Part shown: in pieces, positions 1,812 to 11,563 of the stretch
Position numbering within the stretch: position 1 is the stretch's first letter
Layout: every line of letters starts with the position of its first letter
UHGV virus genome: UHGV-0208676
Direction: 5' to 3' (one strand)
Source of the DNA: a virus
Length of the DNA stretch: 11,800 nucleotides
The notes under the pieces: generated by a model
What the model was told of the DNA's origin: nothing
The model's input: the letters and a program-made list of their open reading frames with translations, nothing else
Database searches by the model: none
Translations under genes and position numbers: made by a program

Positions 1812-2876
1812 ATGTCACAGAACTGGATGAGACATTTCGAGCTGCAGCTTGTGGACGGGAACGGTCAGGGAATTGAGCTAAGTGATTTCAAAGTCACCTT
1901 TACGATCGACTGGTTCAACATCAGCAGCGCGTCCCGGGTAGGGACTATCAAAATTTATAACCTCTCGGCAGATACTGTGAACCGAATTACCGGGCAGGAG
2001 TTTTCGAAAGTGCGTCTGATTGCCGGTTACGACGGTATCGCGCCGGAGGTGTCAGCAAGCGACGTAGGGACCGTGCGGGAAGTTGACGCGGCGGACGTGG
2101 GCCAGAGAGATGGCCGCAACTACGGACTGATTTTCAGCGGTGAAATTCGCTACTCGGTCACAGGAAAAGACAGTCCGGTTGATACCTACGTCCTGATTCA
2201 GGCAGCAGATACTGATCTGGCTTTTGCTACCAGTATAACCTCACAGACGCTGGCTGCCGGTTACACGGTCGCTGATGTGAACCGTGCGCTGATGAAAGAC
2301 TTCGAAGCCAAAGGCGCGACCGAAGGCCTGACGCCTGAAATGCCTGCTACTGTATTCCCTCGGGGGCGGGTACTCTTTGGCATGACGCGGCATCTAATGG
2401 ATAACGTAGCCGGACAATGTGGCGCAACATGGCAATTCGTGGACGGTCAGCGCCAGATGGTGGCGAATAACGAATATGTTCACGAAGCGATTGTGCTCAA
2501 CAGCGCTACCGGGCTTATTGGAATGCCGCAGCAGACTATCGGTAACGGCGTAAACGTCCGCGCGCTTATTAATCCGAACATCCGGGTTAACGGGCTCATT
2601 CAGCTGGATCAGGCTTCCGTCTATCGTACCGCGTTGTCGAACAACGATATTGCGATGGCTGGTGGTCAGATCACCGACCAGAACACGGACGGAAATATCA
2701 CGCTCAGCGGCACCACATCGCAGCCTGCCAGCATCGCAACGGATGGCGTTTATATTGTGCGCGGGATTATGTACACTGGCGACACAAGGGGCCAGGCGTG
2801 GTACATGGATATGATGTGTGAAGCGCGTGGCGCGGCGGATCTTGTTTCCTCATCAGCGAGGGAAAGAGGGCTTTAA
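1812..2876 (+). CDS. Putative baseplate hub protein (Mu gp44 / P2 gpD-like) of a contractile tail
   Basis: 354-aa ORF with a GGAG RBS 5 nt upstream, placed between tape measure and spike as in Mu-type tail modules, with similar size to Mu gp44. Assignment is by synteny and size, not by a recognised motif. Confidence 0.45.
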   Translation: MSQNWMRHFELQLVDGNGQGIELSDFKVTFTIDWFNISSASRVGTIKIYNLSADTVNRITGQEFSKVRLIAGYDGIAPEVSASDVGTVREVDAADVGQRDGRNYGLIFSGEIRYSVTGKDSPVDTYVLIQAADTDLAFATSITSQTLAAGYTVADVNRALMKDFEAKGATEGLTPEMPATVFPRGRVLFGMTRHLMDNVAGQCGATWQFVDGQRQMVANNEYVHEAIVLNSATGLIGMPQQTIGNGVNVRALINPNIRVNGLIQLDQASVYRTALSNNDIAMAGGQITDQNTDGNITLSGTTSQPASIATDGVYIVRGIMYTGDTRGQAWYMDMMCEARGAADLVSSSARERGL

Positions 2877-3208
2877 TGAAACGGTTATGTTTGGCGTTAG
2901 TTATGATGGTTACTGCTCCGGCGATGGCTGCAATTCAGTGCGGCAACTACACGATGACCGGTGACGGAATGACTGTTATTAACGGTGAAACTGTCACATC
3001 ACAGAAGATAAAATTTCTGGGAAAAGATGGTGACTATTCAAACATGAAAATGGACATGGGCCTGATGCCTTCCCGTGATGGTAACAATTACGGCTTTGAG
3101 TTTGTGAAACGTAACGGAAAAGCTTTCCTGAACGTCCAGCTGCTGCAGAACAGCATGGACGCGCCGAAAATCATTGGATCTTTCCCGTGTAAAAAGGCGT
3201 TACGCTAA
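2876..3208 (+). CDS. Small secreted protein (110 aa) with N-terminal signal peptide, possible moron
   Basis: N-terminus MKRLCLALVMMVTAPAMAA has a basic n-region, hydrophobic core and AxA signal peptidase I site; two Cys (mature N-terminal region and C-terminus). TAATG overlap with the hub gene stop. GC appears lower than the hub gene. Confidence 0.55.
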   Translation: MKRLCLALVMMVTAPAMAAIQCGNYTMTGDGMTVINGETVTSQKIKFLGKDGDYSNMKMDMGLMPSRDGNNYGFEFVKRNGKAFLNVQLLQNSMDAPKIIGSFPCKKALR

Positions 3209-3245: not shown

Positions 3246-3274
3246 TTGACGAGATATTGTTCAAAGTTCACAAT
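3246..3274 (+). promoter_or_regulatory. Candidate sigma70-like promoter for the inserted two-gene cassette
   Basis: TTGACG at 3246-3251, 17-nt spacer, CACAAT at 3269-3274 (weak -10, repeated once as cacaatcacaat), about 30 nt upstream of the 3304 start. Sequence pattern only. Confidence 0.25.
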
Positions 3275-3303
3275 CACAATCCCTTTAGTAAGAGAAATAA
3301 TCC

Positions 3304-4077
3304 ATGGCGGCAGGCATCCCATTAGAAAAAGCGCAAAAATATATTGAACAATTCAATGCGCTTCTATTGGATAGGGAAAGTTTAGATCCCTTCACTGAAA
3401 AGAAAATTCGAGAGGAACTTTCTGTCTCTCCAACGCCTGCTACCAACATTGCACTATCTTATCTGGATGCAATAACCGGAAAGATTGAAAGCGCGTTACG
3501 TTATCTCAGGATAAGCCTAGAAGTAAACGATGTAACGTTGGCAATGCACTATCATCACATTTTAATTAATACATTTAGCTATAATGAACTCAAGGATGTC
3601 TATGTCCCGCTGGCAAAGAAGTATCGGACAAAACTCTTTAGTCACAACGCATACAGTTGGGCGTACCGTTGCGGCGAGCGTGAACAGTTAAAATTTTATA
3701 TGGAAGAGCACATTAAGCTTCTTTCTGAATCAGAAGGCAGGAGTAATGCTATGAAGCACAAAGAAGAACTCCTTGCAGAAATGGATAATTTCTATAGCGC
3801 CACACAGTGCTCGAAGGAACAGTTCCAGACCTTAGCATCCATAATCTGGGGCTTGCTAAGTGAATACAAGGCTACGACAGGTTTCGTTCAGCTTAGTGGA
3901 AGCGGTTGCTATGTTGTTGATATTAAAAATCTTGAGCCTAAAACTATTGCCAAAATGAACTTCGACTTGGCTGATAGAGTCTGCGCTGAATCTAAACTGG
4001 ATGATTGTTCCCTGTTAGCTAGATTTACCTCTCCGCGTCAGTTGCATACGGGGGTGAGCTACCATGTCGGTAACTAG
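3304..4077 (+). CDS. Hypothetical protein (257 aa), first gene of an AT-rich accessory cassette
   Basis: ORF in a visibly AT-rich segment compared with flanking baseplate genes; preceded by a 95-bp non-coding gap; 14-nt overlap with the downstream gene. No catalytic motif recognised by eye. Confidence 0.7.
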   Translation: MAAGIPLEKAQKYIEQFNALLLDRESLDPFTEKKIREELSVSPTPATNIALSYLDAITGKIESALRYLRISLEVNDVTLAMHYHHILINTFSYNELKDVYVPLAKKYRTKLFSHNAYSWAYRCGEREQLKFYMEEHIKLLSESEGRSNAMKHKEELLAEMDNFYSATQCSKEQFQTLASIIWGLLSEYKATTGFVQLSGSGCYVVDIKNLEPKTIAKMNFDLADRVCAESKLDDCSLLARFTSPRQLHTGVSYHVGN

Positions 4078-4459
4078 CAATCAGATTCTCGATACCGCTC
4101 GATTATGTCTGTCTGAAAATATTGAGAGTGGATTTCGAAGCGCTATCTCAAGGGCGTATTACAGTATGTTACATGAGTCTATTAGCTCACTTACTGCCAT
4201 ACCGCATTTTACCCATGAGCATCACAAAAATACTGTGGGTTATATGTCAACGCCCTCAGAGTGCAAATCAGAGCCATACCCGACAAATACACTGAAATCC
4301 CTAGCTTTCGTACTTCGCCAGTGGCGGGATGCTAGAAATGAAGCTGACTATGATCTGACGAATGTGACTGTTTCGAAAGAGATGGGACAGGATGCAATCG
4401 AGGCTGCTGAACTCTATTTTGAGCGCTGGGAACAGCTAAAGTCTGCTAGAGTTTCATGA
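4064..4459 (+). CDS. HEPN-like protein (131 aa), second gene of the accessory cassette
   Basis: N-terminal helix motif SAISRAYYSMLHES and C-terminal LRQWRDARNEADYD resemble conserved helices of small HEPN-domain proteins, with Tyr where the canonical Rx4-6H histidine is expected. GGGGTGAG RBS; followed directly by an intrinsic terminator. Confidence 0.65.
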   Translation: MSVTSNQILDTARLCLSENIESGFRSAISRAYYSMLHESISSLTAIPHFTHEHHKNTVGYMSTPSECKSEPYPTNTLKSLAFVLRQWRDARNEADYDLTNVTVSKEMGQDAIEAAELYFERWEQLKSARVS

Positions 4460-4476
4460 ATAAAATTAACGTTATC

Positions 4477-4500
4477 AAACCCGCTTCGGCGGGTTTTTTG
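4477..4500 (+). terminator. Rho-independent terminator after the accessory cassette
   Basis: Stem AAACCCGC (4477-4484), loop TTCG, stem GCGGGTTT (4489-4496), then a T-run to 4499; sits 18 nt after the 4459 stop and upstream of the spike RBS. Confidence 0.8.
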
Positions 4501-4518
4501 CTTTCTGGAGCCTACTAA

Positions 4519-5624: not shown

Positions 5625-6823
5625 TGGCTCTGAACCTTGATTCTCTCGGTTTATCTGCAAAGGTAACCGCAGAGGGGATCAGTGCGCCTGATTATCAGAC
5701 GATACTCAGCACCCTGATTAGCTATTTTCAGCAGATTTATGGCAGTGATGCCTACCTCGAACCGGACAGCAAAGACGGCCAGATGGTGGCTCTGATGGCG
5801 CTGGCGATTCATGATGCCAATAATACTGCGATAACTGTCTACAACTGTTTTTCACCGGCAACCGGCTATGGGGCTGCACTGACCAGTAACGTGAAAATAA
5901 ATGGTATTTCACGTAAAGGCGCGACGAACTCTACGGTTGATTTGCTTCTTACAGGAACTGCCGGAACAACCATCATTAATGGCAGCGTGAAAGATGGTAA
6001 TAATGTGATATGGCGTTTGCCTGCTTCAGTGGTGGTCGGCGTGGATGGTACAGTGATGGCGACCGCAACATGTTCCGTCAGTGGTGCAGTGGCGGCGCTG
6101 GCTGGAACTATCACTGAAATTAATACGCCAACCCGTGGCTGGGTTTCGGTAACCAATCCTGCTGCAGCTACTGTAGGCACTCCGGCAGAAACTGATGCGG
6201 AGTTACGTATCCGTCAGTCGCAAAGTGTTGCGTTGCCATCAATAACCCCATTTGAAGCACTGGATGGTGCTGTTTCTAATGTTACCGGTGTAACCCGCCA
6301 CAAACTCTATGAAAACGATACTGGTTCAGAGGACGGTAACGGGTTACCGCCACACTCTGTTGCTGTAATTGTGGATGGCGGTGATGTGACGGATATTGCT
6401 CAGGCTATCAGAGGAAATAAAGGCCAGGGGACAGCCACTCACGGTACAACATCCGTTACGGTTCCGGATAAATACGGCAATCCCCATGTAATCAAATTCT
6501 CGCGTTCCAGTGATGTGCCTGTTTATGCCCGGATTAAATTAAAAGTTTTTACGGGTTATACCTCACAGATAGGGCAGCAGATCCAGCAGGCTATTTCCGA
6601 CTATATCAATAGTCTGATGATTGGTGATTCGGTCCTTTTAAGTCGCATTTACTCACCGGCGAATCTTGGCGTGGTGAGTGGCGGGAATGCACGCTATTAC
6701 GATATTCAGGAACTGACGATTGGGAAATCCCCGGGGGCTTTGTCGTCATCAAACATTGATATCAGATACAACGAATCTGCGTCCTGTACCCCGGAAAATA
6801 TCGTTATAACGGTGGAGTCATGA
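5624..6823 (+). CDS. Baseplate J-like protein (P2 gpJ / Mu gp47 family)
   Basis: 399-aa ORF with GGAGG RBS 5 nt upstream; size and position after the gp25-like gene and before an I-like gene; Gly/Thr/Val-rich central region typical of J-family wedge proteins. Confidence 0.75.
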   Translation: MALNLDSLGLSAKVTAEGISAPDYQTILSTLISYFQQIYGSDAYLEPDSKDGQMVALMALAIHDANNTAITVYNCFSPATGYGAALTSNVKINGISRKGATNSTVDLLLTGTAGTTIINGSVKDGNNVIWRLPASVVVGVDGTVMATATCSVSGAVAALAGTITEINTPTRGWVSVTNPAAATVGTPAETDAELRIRQSQSVALPSITPFEALDGAVSNVTGVTRHKLYENDTGSEDGNGLPPHSVAVIVDGGDVTDIAQAIRGNKGQGTATHGTTSVTVPDKYGNPHVIKFSRSSDVPVYARIKLKVFTGYTSQIGQQIQQAISDYINSLMIGDSVLLSRIYSPANLGVVSGGNARYYDIQELTIGKSPGALSSSNIDIRYNESASCTPENIVITVES

Positions 6824-7500
6824 GCAAATACACCGAACTAATCACGAACTACCACGCCACCAAACCTAAATTTCTTGCGCATGTTGATCTGATGACCCGG
6901 CCGCTTATTGATGTTGCGGCGGCCACCAGAGGGTTGATTACTGCATTTGATATTGACTCCGCGGTTGGTGTGCAACTTGACATTCTTGGATTGTGGATCG
7001 GACGTAGCCGTGTTGTCAGCCAGCCTATCTCAGGTGTCTATTTCAGCTGGGATACCGACGGGCTTGGATATGATCAGGGTGTATGGCAGGGGCCATACGA
7101 TCCTGATTCCGGATACATGTACCTCAGCGATGAAACTTATCGTGTCATCCTTAAAGCGAAGATTGCGATTAATAACTGGGACGGACGGAATGATTCGCTT
7201 CCGGTAATTCTTGACGCGGCAACAGCAGGATCCGGGCTGCGAATGCAGATAGTCGATAACCAGGACATGACGATATCGGTCTGGGTCTTTCCTGATACTG
7301 ATATTTCAGATGTATCGCGTGAGTTAATTGCGGCAATTAAACAGGGGTATCTAACAGTAAAAGCCGCCGGGGTATGGGCGGGGGGCATTGAAACACCTTC
7401 GGTGGAAACTCCATCGGAAGGCTCTAAATTTTTTGGTTTTGATATGGATAACGAATTCATCAGTGGTTTTGATGTAGGGGCATGGGGAGTATTACTCTGA
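6820..7500 (+). CDS. Baseplate wedge / tail-fibre attachment protein (P2 gpI-like, Mu gp48 / YmfQ-like position)
   Basis: 226-aa ORF overlapping the J-like stop by 4 nt (ATGA) and overlapping the fibre start (TGATG at 7498-7502); canonical position between J and the fibre. Confidence 0.7.
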   Translation: MSKYTELITNYHATKPKFLAHVDLMTRPLIDVAAATRGLITAFDIDSAVGVQLDILGLWIGRSRVVSQPISGVYFSWDTDGLGYDQGVWQGPYDPDSGYMYLSDETYRVILKAKIAINNWDGRNDSLPVILDAATAGSGLRMQIVDNQDMTISVWVFPDTDISDVSRELIAAIKQGYLTVKAAGVWAGGIETPSVETPSEGSKFFGFDMDNEFISGFDVGAWGVLL

Positions 7501-9920
7501 TGGCAAAAAATGACTTTAAAGCATTCGCAACGGGTAAAAATGCCAATGTTATGTCGCAGGAGGAATGGGAAGCGTTGCCTGCGCTTTTATCCGGATTTAC
7601 AGCAGGGAAAGCATCCAGTGCGCAAGTCAATAAGGTTATTCGGCAGGCCAGCTTTATTGCTGCAGCTCTGGCCCAGTTTGTAAGTGACAAAACGCAACGG
7701 GATGTGCTTGATAATGGTGATCTGCCCGGTTTTGTTGAATTGCTGGGATCGGGGTTTGCTGTTGAATACCTGAGCCGCAAGAATCCGTTTGGCGATATCA
7801 AATCGGATGGCACGGTAGAACGCGCTCTTGAAAATCTGGGGTTACAGGATGTAAAAGCTGGTTCATTGAACAATCTGTACACTAACCATTCCCGTAGTGT
7901 CTTAATGGAATTGCCGTTATTATTCCCAGACTACGATACAGTGCTGGCTGCTCAGTCTGGTGCGGAATATATGTATCCACAGGGATTTGTGGTGACAGGA
8001 GAAAAAATCTATCTGAGTTATACCGTTGAGCCAAAGCAGACACGGAACGTTATAGTTCAGTACACAACATCCGGCGAATATGAGGGATATTATTATGTCG
8101 ATAATGGAGGTCGTGGCGTTGTCAGCGAAGGCCTTGTGGTGACAACGGATTACGGTGGATTACGTTTGTTCATGTCAGGAGAAAATGGATTACTGAAACA
8201 GTTTTCGCTTGATGGGGCAATTTCTGGTTCAGTATTGCCGTTAATTGATGAACATGACGTCGGTGTTTACAACCAGTTCAGCTATCGTAAAAACCGCTGG
8301 GTGGTTGAACAGTCAGCGCCGGAAGTGGGAGGCCTGATCACCCGCACAGTATTTGCGGTGTATGATTTTCAGTTTCGTCGGACGGGGACATTCACATTAC
8401 CGTTGCATGATTCCGGATATATCACGGAAAGCACAGACAGCTATGCAAGACGCTTCACAAAACGTCAGGGAATTGCTGTGGGAGACGATTATATTGCCTG
8501 TTCTTATGGTGGCTATTTTAATACCGGGGCATCAGCCGGATTTAACCAGTTTCAGGGGGTTAAGGTCTTTTCTCCGGATGGAGTAAAGCTGCAGGAATCC
8601 ATTCTTCATCCCCAAAAAATGATAGATGTGCTTACCAGCCAGGGTTTTACACCTTCGCGCATTGAGAACGAAGGAATTTGTATTTCTGACGACGGCGGCA
8701 GTATATATTCGCTTTATATCTTTCTGGAGCGTGGGTTACCACAGGCTTATCAGAAAGGAATTGTTCTGATGAAAGAGTTCAGTACTGGCAGAGATGCTAT
8801 TGATTTTCGTCAGGCAGCCTGGTTGTACACGGGGTTTGATGTGTCTCATGCCAGTATTGGAACATTTCCCCGTAGTGCCCAGGGGTTGGTAAATCCGGTG
8901 CTGGGGACTGTATTCACATCACTGTCTGAAATTCTGGCATATATGCGCTCTGTGAGTCAGAAATGGTTTTGTCTGCATACAACCACGACACCGATTAAAG
9001 ATCTGAGTGGAAATGATATTCCTGCTGACAATTATGTGTTCATCAAGAATGCTAATAACCAGACATTCTATATAACGCAGGAGTCAGCTGAAGGTGGAAT
9101 AAAATATAAAGCTGTCACCACAGGCAGCGGAGAATATGGTTTTCAGCGACAAAGAGAGGCAACCTGGTCCAATGTTATCACCATCGCACAAAAGAGCGAT
9201 GGTGAGGACCAGTTTAATCGTATTGTTGCCGCATCGAAAAGTGGTTCAGGTAACAATCAGGATAAAATACTGGTAGTTGACCAGCAGGCATCAGAGGGGA
9301 ATAACACACTGATAATTGGCGGTGCTTCATCTGTGTTCAGGTCAGCGACAGTGATTGATTTTGCAACGAATCAGGATGCAAATGCCACTGGAGGAGAAAA
9401 AAGATGGCGCATAGATTCATCAGGAAATCTCCGCCCTTATACAGATAATACGTATTCGATCGGTTATGCCTCATGGCGACCCGCACAGGTTTATGCAGCT
9501 ACAGGAAGTATCAGTACATCAGACCGGACTCGTAAACAGGACGAAACAATTCTGTCGGATGCAGAAAAAAGGGTTGCCAGAAAGTTGCTCGGGTATATCT
9601 GTCGGTTCCGTTTCAGGGATGCTGTGTCCAGCAAAGGGAATGCTGCCAGATGGCATGTAGGAGTGATTGCCCAGGACGTACAGAAGGTATTCTCTGAGGA
9701 AGGGCTGGATGCTTTTGATTACGGTATTTTGTGTCGTGATGAATATCCGGCGGAATATGAAGTGGTTTACGGGACTCGTATGGAGCTTGGTCCTGATGGA
9801 CTCCTTGCAATGGAAGAATACGATACCGGAGAGCGTAAGCTGGTCAGGGAGGCTGGCGAAATAATGTCTGTAAGGAATGATGAGCTGCATTATTTCATGT
9901 TGGCATCGCTGGCCAGTTAA
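7500..9920 (+). CDS. Tail fibre / tailspike protein with C-terminal intramolecular chaperone (peptidase S74-like) domain
   Basis: Start placed at ATG 7500 (GGGGAG RBS 10 nt upstream, TGATG coupling) rather than the ORF-track 7482. Conserved fibre N-terminal anchor (FATGKNANVMSQEEWEALP...KVIRQASFIAAALAQFV). C-terminal 133 aa (9519-9917) has S-D-x3-K (STSDRTRK) and GVIAQDVQKVF motifs typical of auto-cleaving chaperone domains. Confidence 0.75.
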   Translation: MAKNDFKAFATGKNANVMSQEEWEALPALLSGFTAGKASSAQVNKVIRQASFIAAALAQFVSDKTQRDVLDNGDLPGFVELLGSGFAVEYLSRKNPFGDIKSDGTVERALENLGLQDVKAGSLNNLYTNHSRSVLMELPLLFPDYDTVLAAQSGAEYMYPQGFVVTGEKIYLSYTVEPKQTRNVIVQYTTSGEYEGYYYVDNGGRGVVSEGLVVTTDYGGLRLFMSGENGLLKQFSLDGAISGSVLPLIDEHDVGVYNQFSYRKNRWVVEQSAPEVGGLITRTVFAVYDFQFRRTGTFTLPLHDSGYITESTDSYARRFTKRQGIAVGDDYIACSYGGYFNTGASAGFNQFQGVKVFSPDGVKLQESILHPQKMIDVLTSQGFTPSRIENEGICISDDGGSIYSLYIFLERGLPQAYQKGIVLMKEFSTGRDAIDFRQAAWLYTGFDVSHASIGTFPRSAQGLVNPVLGTVFTSLSEILAYMRSVSQKWFCLHTTTTPIKDLSGNDIPADNYVFIKNANNQTFYITQESAEGGIKYKAVTTGSGEYGFQRQREATWSNVITIAQKSDGEDQFNRIVAASKSGSGNNQDKILVVDQQASEGNNTLIIGGASSVFRSATVIDFATNQDANATGGEKRWRIDSSGNLRPYTDNTYSIGYASWRPAQVYAATGSISTSDRTRKQDETILSDAEKRVARKLLGYICRFRFRDAVSSKGNAARWHVGVIAQDVQKVFSEEGLDAFDYGILCRDEYPAEYEVVYGTRMELGPDGLLAMEEYDTGERKLVREAGEIMSVRNDELHYFMLASLAS

Positions 9921-10115: not shown

Positions 10116-10442
10116 TGGATTTTGCTGCGCCAGCGTGGCGTGAATTTCCGAAGCCTGACTGACAGTATTGATACCAGTACCCCAATGGGCCGTTTCTTTT
10201 TTCATGTGATGGGTGCCCTGGCTGAAATGGAGCGTGAACTGATTGTTGAACGAACAAAAGCTGGACTGGAAGCTGCTCGCGCACAGGGACGAATTGGCGG
10301 TCGCCGTCCCAAACTTTCACCAGAACAATGGGCACAGGCCGGACGATTAATTACATCAGGAGTTCCTCGCCAGAAGGTGGCGATCATCTATGATGTTGGC
10401 GTATCGACTTTGTATAAGAAGTTTCCGGTCGGAGATAAATGA
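10116..10442 (+). pseudogene. DNA invertase (Pin/Gin/Hin serine recombinase family) remnant, C-terminal part only
   Basis: Translation VNFRSLTDSIDTSTPMGRFFFHVMGALAEMERELIVERTKAGLEAARAQGRIGGRRPKLSPEQWAQAGRL...STLYKK matches the C-terminal half of Pin/Gin-type invertases including the HTH region. The frame hits an in-frame TGA at 10113-10115 and the upstream translation has no invertase-like sequence, so the N-terminal catalytic Ser region is absent. The ORF-track start at 10122 is a TTG. Confidence 0.8.
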
Positions 10443-10772: not shown

Positions 10773-10906
10773 ATCTGTTAAAAGCCAGAAGCATTCCCTT
10801 CGCTGACTTTATAGTCAACCATAACACACACTCTACTGTCTGAGTCCAGCGTTTTTTAACATTCTTGTTAAGATTATGTGATCTTTAGCGCGGGAGGAAA
10901 ATATTG

Positions 10907-11563
10907 ATGAAACAGCCTGCGCCCGTTTATCAGAGAATTGCGGGTCATCAATGGCGACATATCTGGCTTTCAGGCGATATACACGGTTGTCTTGAGCAGT
11001 TGCGCCGCAAATTATGGCATTGTCGTTTTGATCCGTGGCGAGATTTACTTATCTCAGTGGGAGACGTTATCGATCGTGGGCCGCAAAGTTTACGTTGCCT
11101 GCAGTTACTGGAACAACATTGGGTTCGTGCGGTAAGAGGCAATCATGAACAGATGGCGATGGATGCGCTGGCATCCCGGCAGATGTCTTTATGGTTGATA
11201 AATGGCGGCGACTGGTTTATTGCGCTGGCAGATAATCAACAGAAACAAGCGAAAACGGCGCTGGAAAAATGTCAGCATTTGCCCTTTATTCTTGAATTAC
11301 ACAGTCGCACCGGCAAACATGTTATTGCTCATGCCGATTATCCAGATGATGTCTATGAATGGCAAAAGGACGTCGATTTGCATCAGGTCTTGTGGAGCCG
11401 CTCGCGATTAGGTGAACGCCAAAAAGGGCAGGGAATTGCAGGTGCTGATCATTTCTGGTTTGGTCATACACCTTTGCGCCATCGCGTGGATATTGGCAAC
11501 CTGCATTATATTGATACCGGTGCTGTCTTTGGGGGAGAACTGACTCTTGTGCAATTGCAATAA
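10907..11563 (+). CDS. pphA: Serine/threonine protein phosphatase 1 (PP1/lambda-phosphatase-like metallophosphatase)
   Basis: Motifs GDIHG, GDVIDRG and GNHE present; 218 aa from ATG 10907 (GGAGG RBS about 9 nt upstream; the ORF-track 10904 is a TTG one codon earlier). N-terminus MKQPAPVYQRIAGHQWRHIWLSGDIHGC matches my recollection of E. coli PrpA; convergent with a yebW-like gene as in K-12. Confidence 0.85.
   Translation: MKQPAPVYQRIAGHQWRHIWLSGDIHGCLEQLRRKLWHCRFDPWRDLLISVGDVIDRGPQSLRCLQLLEQHWVRAVRGNHEQMAMDALASRQMSLWLINGGDWFIALADNQQKQAKTALEKCQHLPFILELHSRTGKHVIAHADYPDDVYEWQKDVDLHQVLWSRSRLGERQKGQGIAGADHFWFGHTPLRHRVDIGNLHYIDTGAVFGGELTLVQLQ

What the first reader, a model, noticed from the sequence alone, without database searches (positions are those of the whole stretch)
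4064..4459. HEPN-like protein with Tyr in place of the canonical catalytic His
The 131-aa product has the helix pattern typical of small HEPN proteins (SAISRAYYSMLHES near the N-terminus, LRQWRDARNEADYD near the C-terminus). Where catalytic HEPN RNases have Rx4-6H, this one reads R-N-E-A-D-Y. It could be a non-catalytic or variant-chemistry member; a His cluster (HFTHEHH) lies between the two helices.
Basis: partly seen in the sequence, partly recalled or inferred. Interest (0 to 1): 0.6.

Follow-up and report, generated by a model that had tools for sequence, protein, structure and literature searches.

The report
Phage-borne HEPN protein with helical-repeat partner
The 131-residue protein is a genuine HEPN-fold protein, and its tyrosine-for-histidine motif is normal for a large, already described HEPN branch; what is new is that it always travels through phage genomes with an uncharacterised 257-residue helical-repeat partner, as a self-contained two-gene cassette that is probably a toxin-like or anti-phage module.

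Summary

The Tyr is not an oddity. R-x-x-A-D-Y plus a His in the helix-2/3 insert occurs in about 99% of 150 representatives of a clade with at least 1,473 clusters. AF0298 and PDB 9xbd have it too. Anantharaman 2013 and Yao 2020 ("Class II" HEPN, no RX4H, conserved Tyr, no biochemistry) already described it.

The new point is context. Instead of the usual MNT nucleotidyltransferase, the upstream, translationally coupled gene (3304-4077) encodes a TPR-like protein with no family assignment. The pair, with its own terminator (4477-4496) and low GC, recurs in about 70 distinct versions, in Mu-like, lambda-like and this myovirus's tail modules and elsewhere. It matches no PADLOC, Pfam or NCBIfam model.

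The best reading is a prophage "moron" encoding a HEPN effector controlled by a TPR-like partner, acting as a toxin-antitoxin-like or abortive-infection module. That function is inferred, not shown.

The parts
3246..3301 (+). Two overlapping sigma-70-like promoter candidates in the 95-nt intergenic region upstream of the partner gene (unproven)
   Evidence: One search gives TTGACG-17-CACAAT and ATCACA-17-AATAAT, each matching 9/12. The region holds 3 such sites against 3.6 expected by chance, so this is position-compatible only.
3304..4077 (+). Partner gene, 257 aa. Eight TPR-like helices (res 7-139), two long helices (146-187), a small beta-beta-alpha-beta unit (192-242) and a disordered conserved tail (245-253).
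4050..4066 (+). Shine-Dalgarno-like GGGGGTGAG and the ATG of the HEPN gene, embedded in the last codons of the partner gene (14-nt overlap, translational coupling)
   Evidence: Sequence. Across 38 distinct tails, the ATG lies inside the partner's Tyr/His codon (TAT-G / CAT-G) and a GGRG run sits 8-10 nt upstream, even where the partner's amino acids differ.
4064..4459 (+). HEPN-fold protein gene, 131 aa (AF0298/PF05168-type branch)
4136..4174 (+). Helix-2 signature R25...S29-R30-A-Y32-Y33-x-x-x-H37
   Evidence: R25 in 146/150, R30 in 140/150, Y32 in 146/150, Y33 in 145/150 and H37 in 145/150 clade representatives.
4220..4225 (+). [quoted passage not shown]
   Evidence: Invariant in the family. 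Aligns to the insert His of AF0298 and 9xbd. A His is present in the insert of 143/145 representatives. The role was proposed for AF0298-like HEPNs in PMC3710099.
4325..4351 (+). R88-D-A-R91-N92-E-A-D95-Y96 motif at the C-terminal end of helix 3, at the position of the canonical RX4-6H
   Evidence: Invariant in the family. R91 in 149/150, D95 in 149/150, Y96 in 148/150 and A94 in 134/150 of the clade.
4477..4506 (+). Intrinsic terminator (8-bp stem, 5 GC pairs, TTCG loop, T-run) closing the cassette
   Evidence: An equivalent hairpin lies within 130 nt of the HEPN stop in 41 of 44 distinct loci in all contexts, with compensatory stem changes.

Best explanation
Window 3246-4506 is a self-contained accessory cassette (a 'moron') inserted between the baseplate and spike genes of an E. 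coli myovirus-type prophage. It encodes two translationally coupled proteins. The downstream 131-aa protein is a HEPN-fold protein of the AF0298/PF05168 ('Class II') branch. In this branch the canonical RX4-6H histidine is replaced by an invariant Tyr, and a His from the helix-2/3 insert is conserved instead. I infer that it is the effector: most likely a metal-independent RNase, or at least an RNA-binding toxin, that uses R91 with H54 and Y96/D95. The upstream 257-aa TPR-like protein occupies the place that the MNT nucleotidyltransferase antitoxin holds in classical HEPN modules. I infer that it binds the HEPN protein and controls it, acting as a sequestering antitoxin, as a sensor of a phage or cellular cue, or as both. 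Expressed from the prophage, the pair would act as a toxin-antitoxin-like or abortive-infection module that benefits the phage by excluding competitors or stabilising the prophage. Shown here: the fold, branch membership, motif conservation, obligate pairing, co-divergence, mobility between unrelated phage positions, the terminator, the GC difference and purifying selection. Inferred: RNase activity, which residues catalyse, the physical interaction, and the defence or addiction role. My confidence is about 0.95 for the HEPN fold and about 0.95 for the conserved two-gene cassette, but only about 0.45-0.5 for the functional reading. The overall figure below reflects the latter.
Against: No experiment bears on activity, and Yao 2020 state that no biochemistry exists for Class II HEPNs. 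Neither protein hits any PADLOC defence model, and the partner accession is not in the DefensePredictor tables held. The promoter candidates are no more frequent than chance, so expression from the lysogen is unproven. The cassette could instead be transcribed only with the late tail genes. Two contigs (L042, L043) carry a 1-nt frameshift early in the partner with an intact HEPN gene. If real, this argues against the partner being an indispensable antitoxin. The partner has no recognisable catalytic or DNA-binding domain, so its role is assigned by position and analogy only.
Confidence: 0.5

Rival explanations
1. Non-catalytic HEPN. The protein has lost RNase chemistry along with the motif His. 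It acts as a binding or adaptor module for RNA, nucleotides or protein, with the TPR-like partner as co-scaffold. It might work during the lytic cycle in host takeover or anti-defence rather than as a toxin.
For: No His lies 4-6 residues after R91, and only 15 of 145 clade members have a formal Rx4-6H. Anantharaman 2013 discuss non-catalytic, RNA-binding HEPNs such as MtlR and some MNT-associated ones. The L042/L043 partner frameshift with an intact HEPN is easier to tolerate if the HEPN is not toxic. The location inside late operons with an unproven promoter also fits.
Against: Near-invariance of a whole set of polar residues (R25, R30, H37, insert His, R91, D95, Y96) across a clade down to about 25% identity is more typical of an active site than of a scaffold. 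The same paper proposes an alternative active site for precisely this family. The motif sits at the canonical catalytic location, the end of helix 3.
Confidence: 0.2
2. The invariant Tyr is a regulatory acceptor site (AMPylation or another modification), as in HepT/MntA. The partner is a novel modifying enzyme or recruits one, so the system would be a type VII-like toxin-antitoxin module with a non-MNT antitoxin.
For: Yao 2020 note that the conserved Tyr of Class II HEPNs 'can be adenylylated'. A Y-to-F version of the closest solved relative was crystallised (9xbc against 9xbd), which suggests its depositors consider the Tyr functionally important. The partner sits in the MNT position with the same overlap architecture.
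Confidence: 0.1
3. The pair is a tail-assembly accessory (chaperone or baseplate factor) of the phage, not a conflict module.
For: 44 of 65 viral loci sit in the same baseplate-spike slot. Other copies are also in tail modules. TPR proteins are often chaperones.
Against: Closely related phages lack the cassette or carry another gene in the slot. The same pair occurs in non-homologous tail systems (myovirus baseplate, lambda-like tip, Mu-like) and outside tail modules, between Mor and lysozyme or next to Rha. It has lower GC and its own terminator. An IS2 insertion disrupts the HEPN gene in one prophage, and the HEPN fold has no precedent as a virion assembly factor.
Confidence: 0.05

Closest known systems
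[quoted passage not shown] 2013
   Different: It shares only about 20% identity and is archaeal. Its class is described as MNT-associated, whereas the window protein has a TPR-like partner and a phage context. AF0298's own neighbours were not examined here.
PDB 9xbd / 9xbc, 'HEPN domain-containing protein' (unpublished as far as the held library shows)
   Same: It is the best sequence-profile hit (E 2.6e-6 over residues 26-125). It has SRAYYAMFY, an insert His followed by G five residues later, and RNRSDYDL. 9xbc carries F in place of the Tyr.
   Different: Its organism, partner and function are unknown, and no paper was found. It was not present in the fold-search libraries.
Class II HEPN/MNT modules (PF05168/PF01909; Makarova and Koonin; Yao et al. 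2020)
   Same: It has a small stand-alone PF05168-type HEPN without RX4HXY but with a conserved Tyr. It is the downstream gene of an overlapping two-gene module.
   Different: The upstream gene is not an MNT: there is no NTase fold or motif. The window protein itself scores below the PF05168 cut-off. These modules are found mainly in archaea and thermophiles, whereas this one is in enterobacterial and Aeromonas phages.
[quoted passage not shown]
   Different: HepT has RX4HXY, with a catalytic His and the Tyr two residues later. It belongs to DUF86/PF01934 and is neutralised by MntA oligoAMPylation. None of these features is present here.
Prophage-encoded HEPN abortive-infection nucleases HepS (Gifsy-1) and Tha (S. 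aureus)
   Same: They are HEPN proteins carried by prophages as accessory genes. They are activated by proteins of incoming phages and protect the lysogen. They serve as the functional model for the best explanation.
   Different: Both have canonical RX4-6H motifs. HepS is a solo tetramer, and Tha is controlled by an antisense-encoded inhibitor. Neither has detectable sequence relationship to this pair or a TPR-like partner.
DS-28 (DefensePredictor, validated E. coli two-gene system with a 'HEPN family nuclease')
   Same: It is a two-gene E. coli system combining a small HEPN with a protein of about 250 aa of unknown function.
   Different: Its HEPN has a canonical R-N-S-V-A-H motif and comes first in the operon. 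The 252-aa partner sequence is unrelated.

Membership tests
HEPN superfamily (fold level) | Four-helix up-down bundle matching solved HEPN domains, with the conserved motif at the C-terminal end of helix 3 | tested here: met
Pfam PF05168 (HEPN) | Score above the curated gathering cut-off (22 bits) | tested here: not met
   The window protein gives no PF05168 hit even at E<=10. Seven of 22 family members hit weakly (best E 3.8e-5). Four of 10 distant clade representatives exceed the cut-off (23.5-35.9 bits). Membership therefore holds only transitively, at clade level.
Canonical catalytic HEPN RNases | R-x(4-6)-H motif with the His available for catalysis | tested here: not met
   The motif reads R91-N-E-A-D-Y96-D97-L-T, with no His at +5 to +7. 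Only 15 of 145 clade representatives have a formal Rx4-6H.
AF0298-like HEPN-T family (Anantharaman 2013) | R of the motif retained, motif His absent | tested here: met
   R91 is present in 149/150 and Y96 in 148/150.
AF0298-like HEPN-T family (Anantharaman 2013) | [quoted passage not shown] | tested here: met
   H53/H54 are invariant and lie in the insert helix 53-62. They align to the AF0298 and 9xbd His. An insert His occurs in 143/145 representatives. Spatial proximity to R91 was not measured.
Class II HEPN/MNT toxin-antitoxin module | Adjacent MNT nucleotidyltransferase (PF01909, GSX10DXD) | tested here: not met
Type VII HepT/MntA | RX4HXY motif in a DUF86-type HEPN, with neutralisation by MntA AMPylation of the Tyr | tested here: not met
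   The motif is absent, there is no DUF86 hit and there is no MNT. Modification itself is not testable here.
Type II-like toxin-antitoxin module | Two small co-transcribed, translationally coupled genes, with the toxin neutralised by direct binding of the partner | not testable with these tools
   The gene arrangement fits: a 14-nt overlap with a conserved embedded SD and ATG. Toxicity and binding need experiments or a complex model, and the structure jobs were exhausted. The partner frameshift in L042/L043 is a caution.
Known anti-phage defence systems (PADLOC-DB v2) | Match to a model of a known or candidate defence protein | tested here: not met
   There are zero hits at E<=1 for either protein. 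AbiV and DS-28 were compared and are different.
Phage moron (autonomous accessory cassette) | Variable presence at a conserved slot, deviating base composition, own terminator and own promoter | tested here: inconclusive
   Variable presence is met. The GC drop is met. The terminator is met and travels with the cassette. The promoter is not established, because the candidate sites are no more frequent than chance.

The most novel reading that the evidence does not exclude
The R-x-x-A-D-Y HEPN clade performs chemistry distinct from classical HEPN RNases. The invariant Tyr, retained in about 70 phage-borne pairs that lack any MNT, would be a catalytic residue working with the insert His. It might act, for example, as a general acid/base or as a nucleophile forming a covalent RNA intermediate. 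The fast-evolving TPR-like partner would be a dedicated sensor that releases or activates the HEPN protein on recognising a protein of a competing phage. This would define a new, widespread, phage-encoded abortive-infection system and give the first mechanism for the large, biochemically unstudied 'Class II' HEPN branch.
Probability: 0.2. Interest if true: 0.7.

Novelty: new variant of a known kind. Interest (0 to 1): 0.4.

Why it matters
The Tyr-for-His substitution by itself adds nothing new. It has been in the literature since 2013, and the 2020 work names the conserved Tyr.

Two things are worth having. First, the PF05168/AF0298-type branch is very large: 9,583 Class II modules were counted by Yao et al., and at least 1,473 50%-identity clusters were found here for this sub-clade alone. 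Nobody has shown what it does. A version from E. coli prophages, free of the MNT partner, is a convenient entry point for toxicity, RNase and mutagenesis tests. The persistence of the Tyr without an MNT already argues that the Tyr is not merely an AMPylation handle.

Second, the TPR-like-plus-HEPN cassette is a conserved, mobile, two-gene phage module. It is absent from current defence-system catalogues and only half annotated in RefSeq E. coli genomes. If it proves to be an exclusion system, it adds to the emerging picture of prophage HEPN nucleases (HepS, Tha) and of accessory slots inside tail operons.

Tried and rejected
- **Direct family scans.** Scans of both proteins against Pfam, NCBIfam and PADLOC gave nothing usable. 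PHROGs gave only unknown-function families 5176 and 17809.
- **DotG/IcmE hits.** The PDB profile hits to DotG/IcmE (E 1.8e-5) are spurious. They are many weak matches of a 'LKxxGF..ELKDAG' repeat to residues 63-111, with per-domain E-values above 1.
- **AbiV.** It was considered because Anantharaman group it with AF0298 for lacking the motif His. It was rejected because lactococcal AbiV has 91-RNHKSKH-97 and an RNA antitoxin, and there was no PADLOC AbiV hit.
- **DS-28.** This DefensePredictor system was rejected: it has a canonical RNSVAH motif, the reverse gene order and an unrelated partner. The partner accession WP_000718774 is absent from the held supplements, some of which are truncated.
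- **MNT-like partner.** A loose G[SGA]x8-14DxD/E regex hit several distant upstream ORFs but is uninformative. The iterated partner profile then recruited most of them as TPR-like partner homologues.
- **Failed or limited searches.**
  - No paper was found for 9xbd/9xbc.
  - The search for related loci on the divergent alignment A3 failed and was replaced by a degenerate DNA pattern.
  - The genome-contig scan with the partner returned only 4 loci.
- **L086 partner.** It was not recognised by the first profile (hhalign probability 2.9%) but was recruited after iteration. Four other loci (L116, L128, L147, L152) have abutting 228-401-aa upstream ORFs with TPR-like sequence features that no profile recognised.
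- **rsmX.** The weak Rfam rsmX hit at 4431-4499 (24.9 bits against a 56-bit gathering score) is just the terminator hairpin.
- **tRNA genes.** None are present in the window.

Full report
**1. The observation.** It is a real gene. It has 28 homologous 90%-identity clusters in Enterobacterales and Aeromonas. An exhaustive profile search found 1,473 50%-identity representatives at E<=1e-3. dN/dS is 0.046-0.053 against relatives whose synonymous sites are nearly saturated. In the 22-sequence family alignment, R88, A90, R91, N92, A94, D95 and Y96 are invariant. So are R25, S29, R30, Y32, Y33 and H37 in the N-terminal helix, and H53, H54, N56, G59 and Y60 between the helices.

**2. Is it HEPN?** Direct scans against Pfam, NCBIfam and PADLOC gave nothing, and PHROGs returned only unknown-function family 5176. 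A profile of the family hits solved 'HEPN domain-containing protein' 9xbd/9xbc (E 2.6e-6 and 1.1e-5) and AF0298/2hsb (E 2e-3) over nearly the full length. Seven of 22 family members hit Pfam HEPN PF05168 weakly. Four of ten distant clade representatives exceed its 22-bit cut-off.

**3. Is the Tyr unusual?** No. AF0298 reads R-E-E-S-D-Y and 9xbd reads R-N-R-S-D-Y at the aligned position, and both have an insert His aligned to H53/H54. Counts among the best 150 clade representatives are given below.

| Residue or feature | Representatives carrying it |
|---|---|
| R91 | 149/150 |
| D95 | 149/150 |
| Y96 | 148/150 |
| A94 | 134/150 |
| Y32 / Y33 / H37 | 145-146/150 |
| His somewhere in the helix-2/3 insert | 143/145 |
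| Formal Rx4-6H | 15/145 |

Position 97, which is His in four members of the close family, is otherwise variable.

This is published knowledge. Anantharaman et al. 2013 describe the AF0298-type HEPN-T family as lacking the motif His while keeping the Arg. They note a second strongly conserved His from the insert between helices 2 and 3 that could build an alternative active site (PMC3710099). Yao et al. 2020 define 'Class II' HEPN/MNT pairs (PF05168/PF01909) and say they lack RX4HXY.

**4. Surroundings.** The window is the tail/baseplate region of an E. coli prophage: baseplate hub, spike, sheath-initiator-like protein, baseplate J and wedge proteins, and a tail fibre. The HEPN gene overlaps by 14 nt a 257-aa upstream ORF (3304-4077).

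The cassette has the following anatomy:
- GC is 0.39-0.45 against 0.50-0.55 in the flanks.
- A 95-nt upstream intergenic region holds promoter-like hexamers, though these are no more frequent than chance.
- A strong intrinsic terminator sits at 4477-4496.

**5. The pair is an obligate, mobile module.** In 69 viral contigs recovered with the HEPN alignment, 65 of the 67 with enough upstream sequence have a partner homologue ending within a few bases of the HEPN start. A second set, recovered with a degenerate pattern for the RAYYAxYH helix, showed the same layout, with abutting upstream ORFs of about 250-300 aa.

An iterated partner profile recruited most of those upstream ORFs. As a specificity control, 117 of its 121 hits among 3,421 ORFs lie directly upstream of a HEPN hit, and the other four are bookkeeping artefacts. 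That amounts to about 70 distinct pairs with a median partner length of 257 aa.

The partner co-diverges with the HEPN protein and evolves faster. At 33% HEPN identity it is 17-19% identical yet homologous over its full length, with hhalign probability 97-98%.

The HEPN start codon is embedded in the partner's penultimate Tyr/His codon, with a GGRG run 8-10 nt upstream, in essentially all versions. A terminator hairpin with compensatory stem changes follows the HEPN stop in 41 of 44 distinct loci.

The cassette sits in many unrelated places:
- this baseplate-spike slot;
- a lambda-like tail just before gpM;
- a Mu-like tail between the tape measure and the DNA-circulation protein;
- between Mor and the lysozyme of Aeromonas Mu-like prophages;
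- next to Rha, FtsK-gamma, CoiA-like and glycosyltransferase genes.

Related phages lack it or carry another gene in the slot. Only 27 of the 190 E. coli genomes that carry the flanks hold the full cassette.

**6. Mechanism.**

*Shown:* a HEPN fold of the AF0298 type; a conserved polar constellation at the canonical catalytic location plus an insert His; strict pairing and translational coupling with a TPR-like protein; and autonomy and mobility of the cassette.

*Inferred:* the HEPN protein is the effector, most likely a metal-independent RNase using R91 with H54 and Y96/D95. The partner, which takes the place of the MNT antitoxin, binds it and controls it as a sequestering antitoxin, a sensor, or both. 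Expressed from the prophage, the module would serve exclusion of competing phages or prophage stabilisation, in the manner of HepS and Tha.

That the Tyr remains invariant in dozens of pairs without any MNT argues that its role is intrinsic to the HEPN protein, not only that of a modification acceptor.

Evidence against or missing:
- no biochemistry exists for the class;
- neither protein matches a defence catalogue;
- the promoter is unproven;
- two contigs have a partner frameshift with an intact HEPN gene;
- no complex model or distance measurement was possible.

I put the functional reading at about 0.5. The rivals are a non-catalytic HEPN (0.2), Tyr as a regulatory acceptor with a novel modifier (0.1), and a tail-assembly accessory (0.05).

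**7. Comparison and novelty.** At fold and branch level this is a new, sub-threshold member of a known kind, the AF0298/PF05168-type 'Class II' HEPN. It is not a member of the following:
- the canonical Rx4-6H RNases (motif tested, not met);
- HepT/MntA (no RX4HXY, no DUF86, no MNT);
- Class II HEPN/MNT modules as defined (no MNT);
- AbiV, DS-28, or any PADLOC system.

What differs from every described system is the partner. I therefore rate the cassette a new variant of a known kind.

**8. Verdict.** Interest is moderate (0.4). It is low for the Tyr motif itself. It is higher for the uncharacterised, widespread TPR-like/HEPN phage cassette, which offers a tractable E. coli handle on a large, biochemically unexplored HEPN branch.

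Noticed in passing
window 4064-4459; L155 (E. coli F11, NZ_CP076123.1) 6815-7210: RefSeq/PGAP annotates the 257-aa partner (WP_000718774.1, 'hypothetical protein') but leaves the intact 131-aa HEPN ORF unannotated. All 15 listed E. coli genomes show only one hypothetical protein under the match. The protein database held no full-length cluster more than 90% identical to the E. coli protein.
   Followed up: partly
window 4036-4066 (partner residues 245-254): The partner's disordered but conserved tail (R-x-L-H-T-G-V-S-Y) doubles as the translation-initiation region of the HEPN gene. The invariant Gly and Tyr coincide with the GGRG Shine-Dalgarno run and with the ATG embedded in TAT-G/CAT-G. Arg, Leu and His show many synonymous changes, which indicates protein-level constraint as well. 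The tail is not conserved in the Aeromonas subfamily, where the genes do not overlap.
   Followed up: partly
L037 4280-4391 (IMGVR_UViG_2585427779_000001): In one E. coli prophage the HEPN gene is interrupted directly after E93, inside the RNEADY motif, by an IS2 end that is 100% identical to annotated IS3-family IS2 transposase regions. The partner gene is intact.
   Followed up: yes
L042 and L043, about 3330 (partner gene): A single-base deletion relative to the near-identical L044 frameshifts the partner near codon 40, while the HEPN gene stays intact. It is either a sequencing error or evidence that the partner is not an indispensable antitoxin.
   Followed up: partly
window 2876-3208: A 110-aa ORF lies between the baseplate hub and the cassette. 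Its N-terminus looks like a signal peptide (MKRLCLALVMMVTAPAMAA), and it belongs to PHROG 3443, unknown function. The same position holds 102-116-aa or 288-294-aa proteins in related prophages, so it may be a second variable slot.
   Followed up: no
L007 3409-3921 (Escherichia phage vB_EcoM-606R2): A closely related sequenced phage has a different 170-aa hypothetical gene in the slot that the cassette occupies in the window. This marks the hub-spike junction as an accessory-gene hotspot.
   Followed up: partly
window 4477-4496 and 41 other loci: The cassette terminator keeps the stem AACCCGC/GCGGGTT with variable loops and compensatory variants (CCCAGC/GCTGGG, CCTCGC/GCGGGG). The weak Rfam rsmX hit at 4431-4499 is this hairpin.
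   Followed up: yes
window 10122-10442: A 106-aa ORF corresponds to the C-terminal part of a Pin/Hin-type site-specific recombinase and appears N-terminally truncated. E. coli F11 has an intact pinE and an invertible tail-fibre-assembly segment at the equivalent place. The window instead carries a long 812-aa tail fibre (7482-9920), so the fibre/invertase region has been remodelled.
   Followed up: no
window 10904-11563: A 219-aa ORF carries metallophosphatase motifs (GDIHG, GDVIDRG, GNHE), visible by eye. It resembles a lambda-type Ser/Thr phosphatase. From memory it may be the host pphA gene flanking the prophage end; this was not tested.
   Followed up: no
L013/L014 4232-5399: One subfamily of the pair (HEPN 62% identical) sits among genes with no Pfam assignment at all and with opposite-strand small ORFs downstream. 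This context is unlike the tail modules and was not identified.
   Followed up: no
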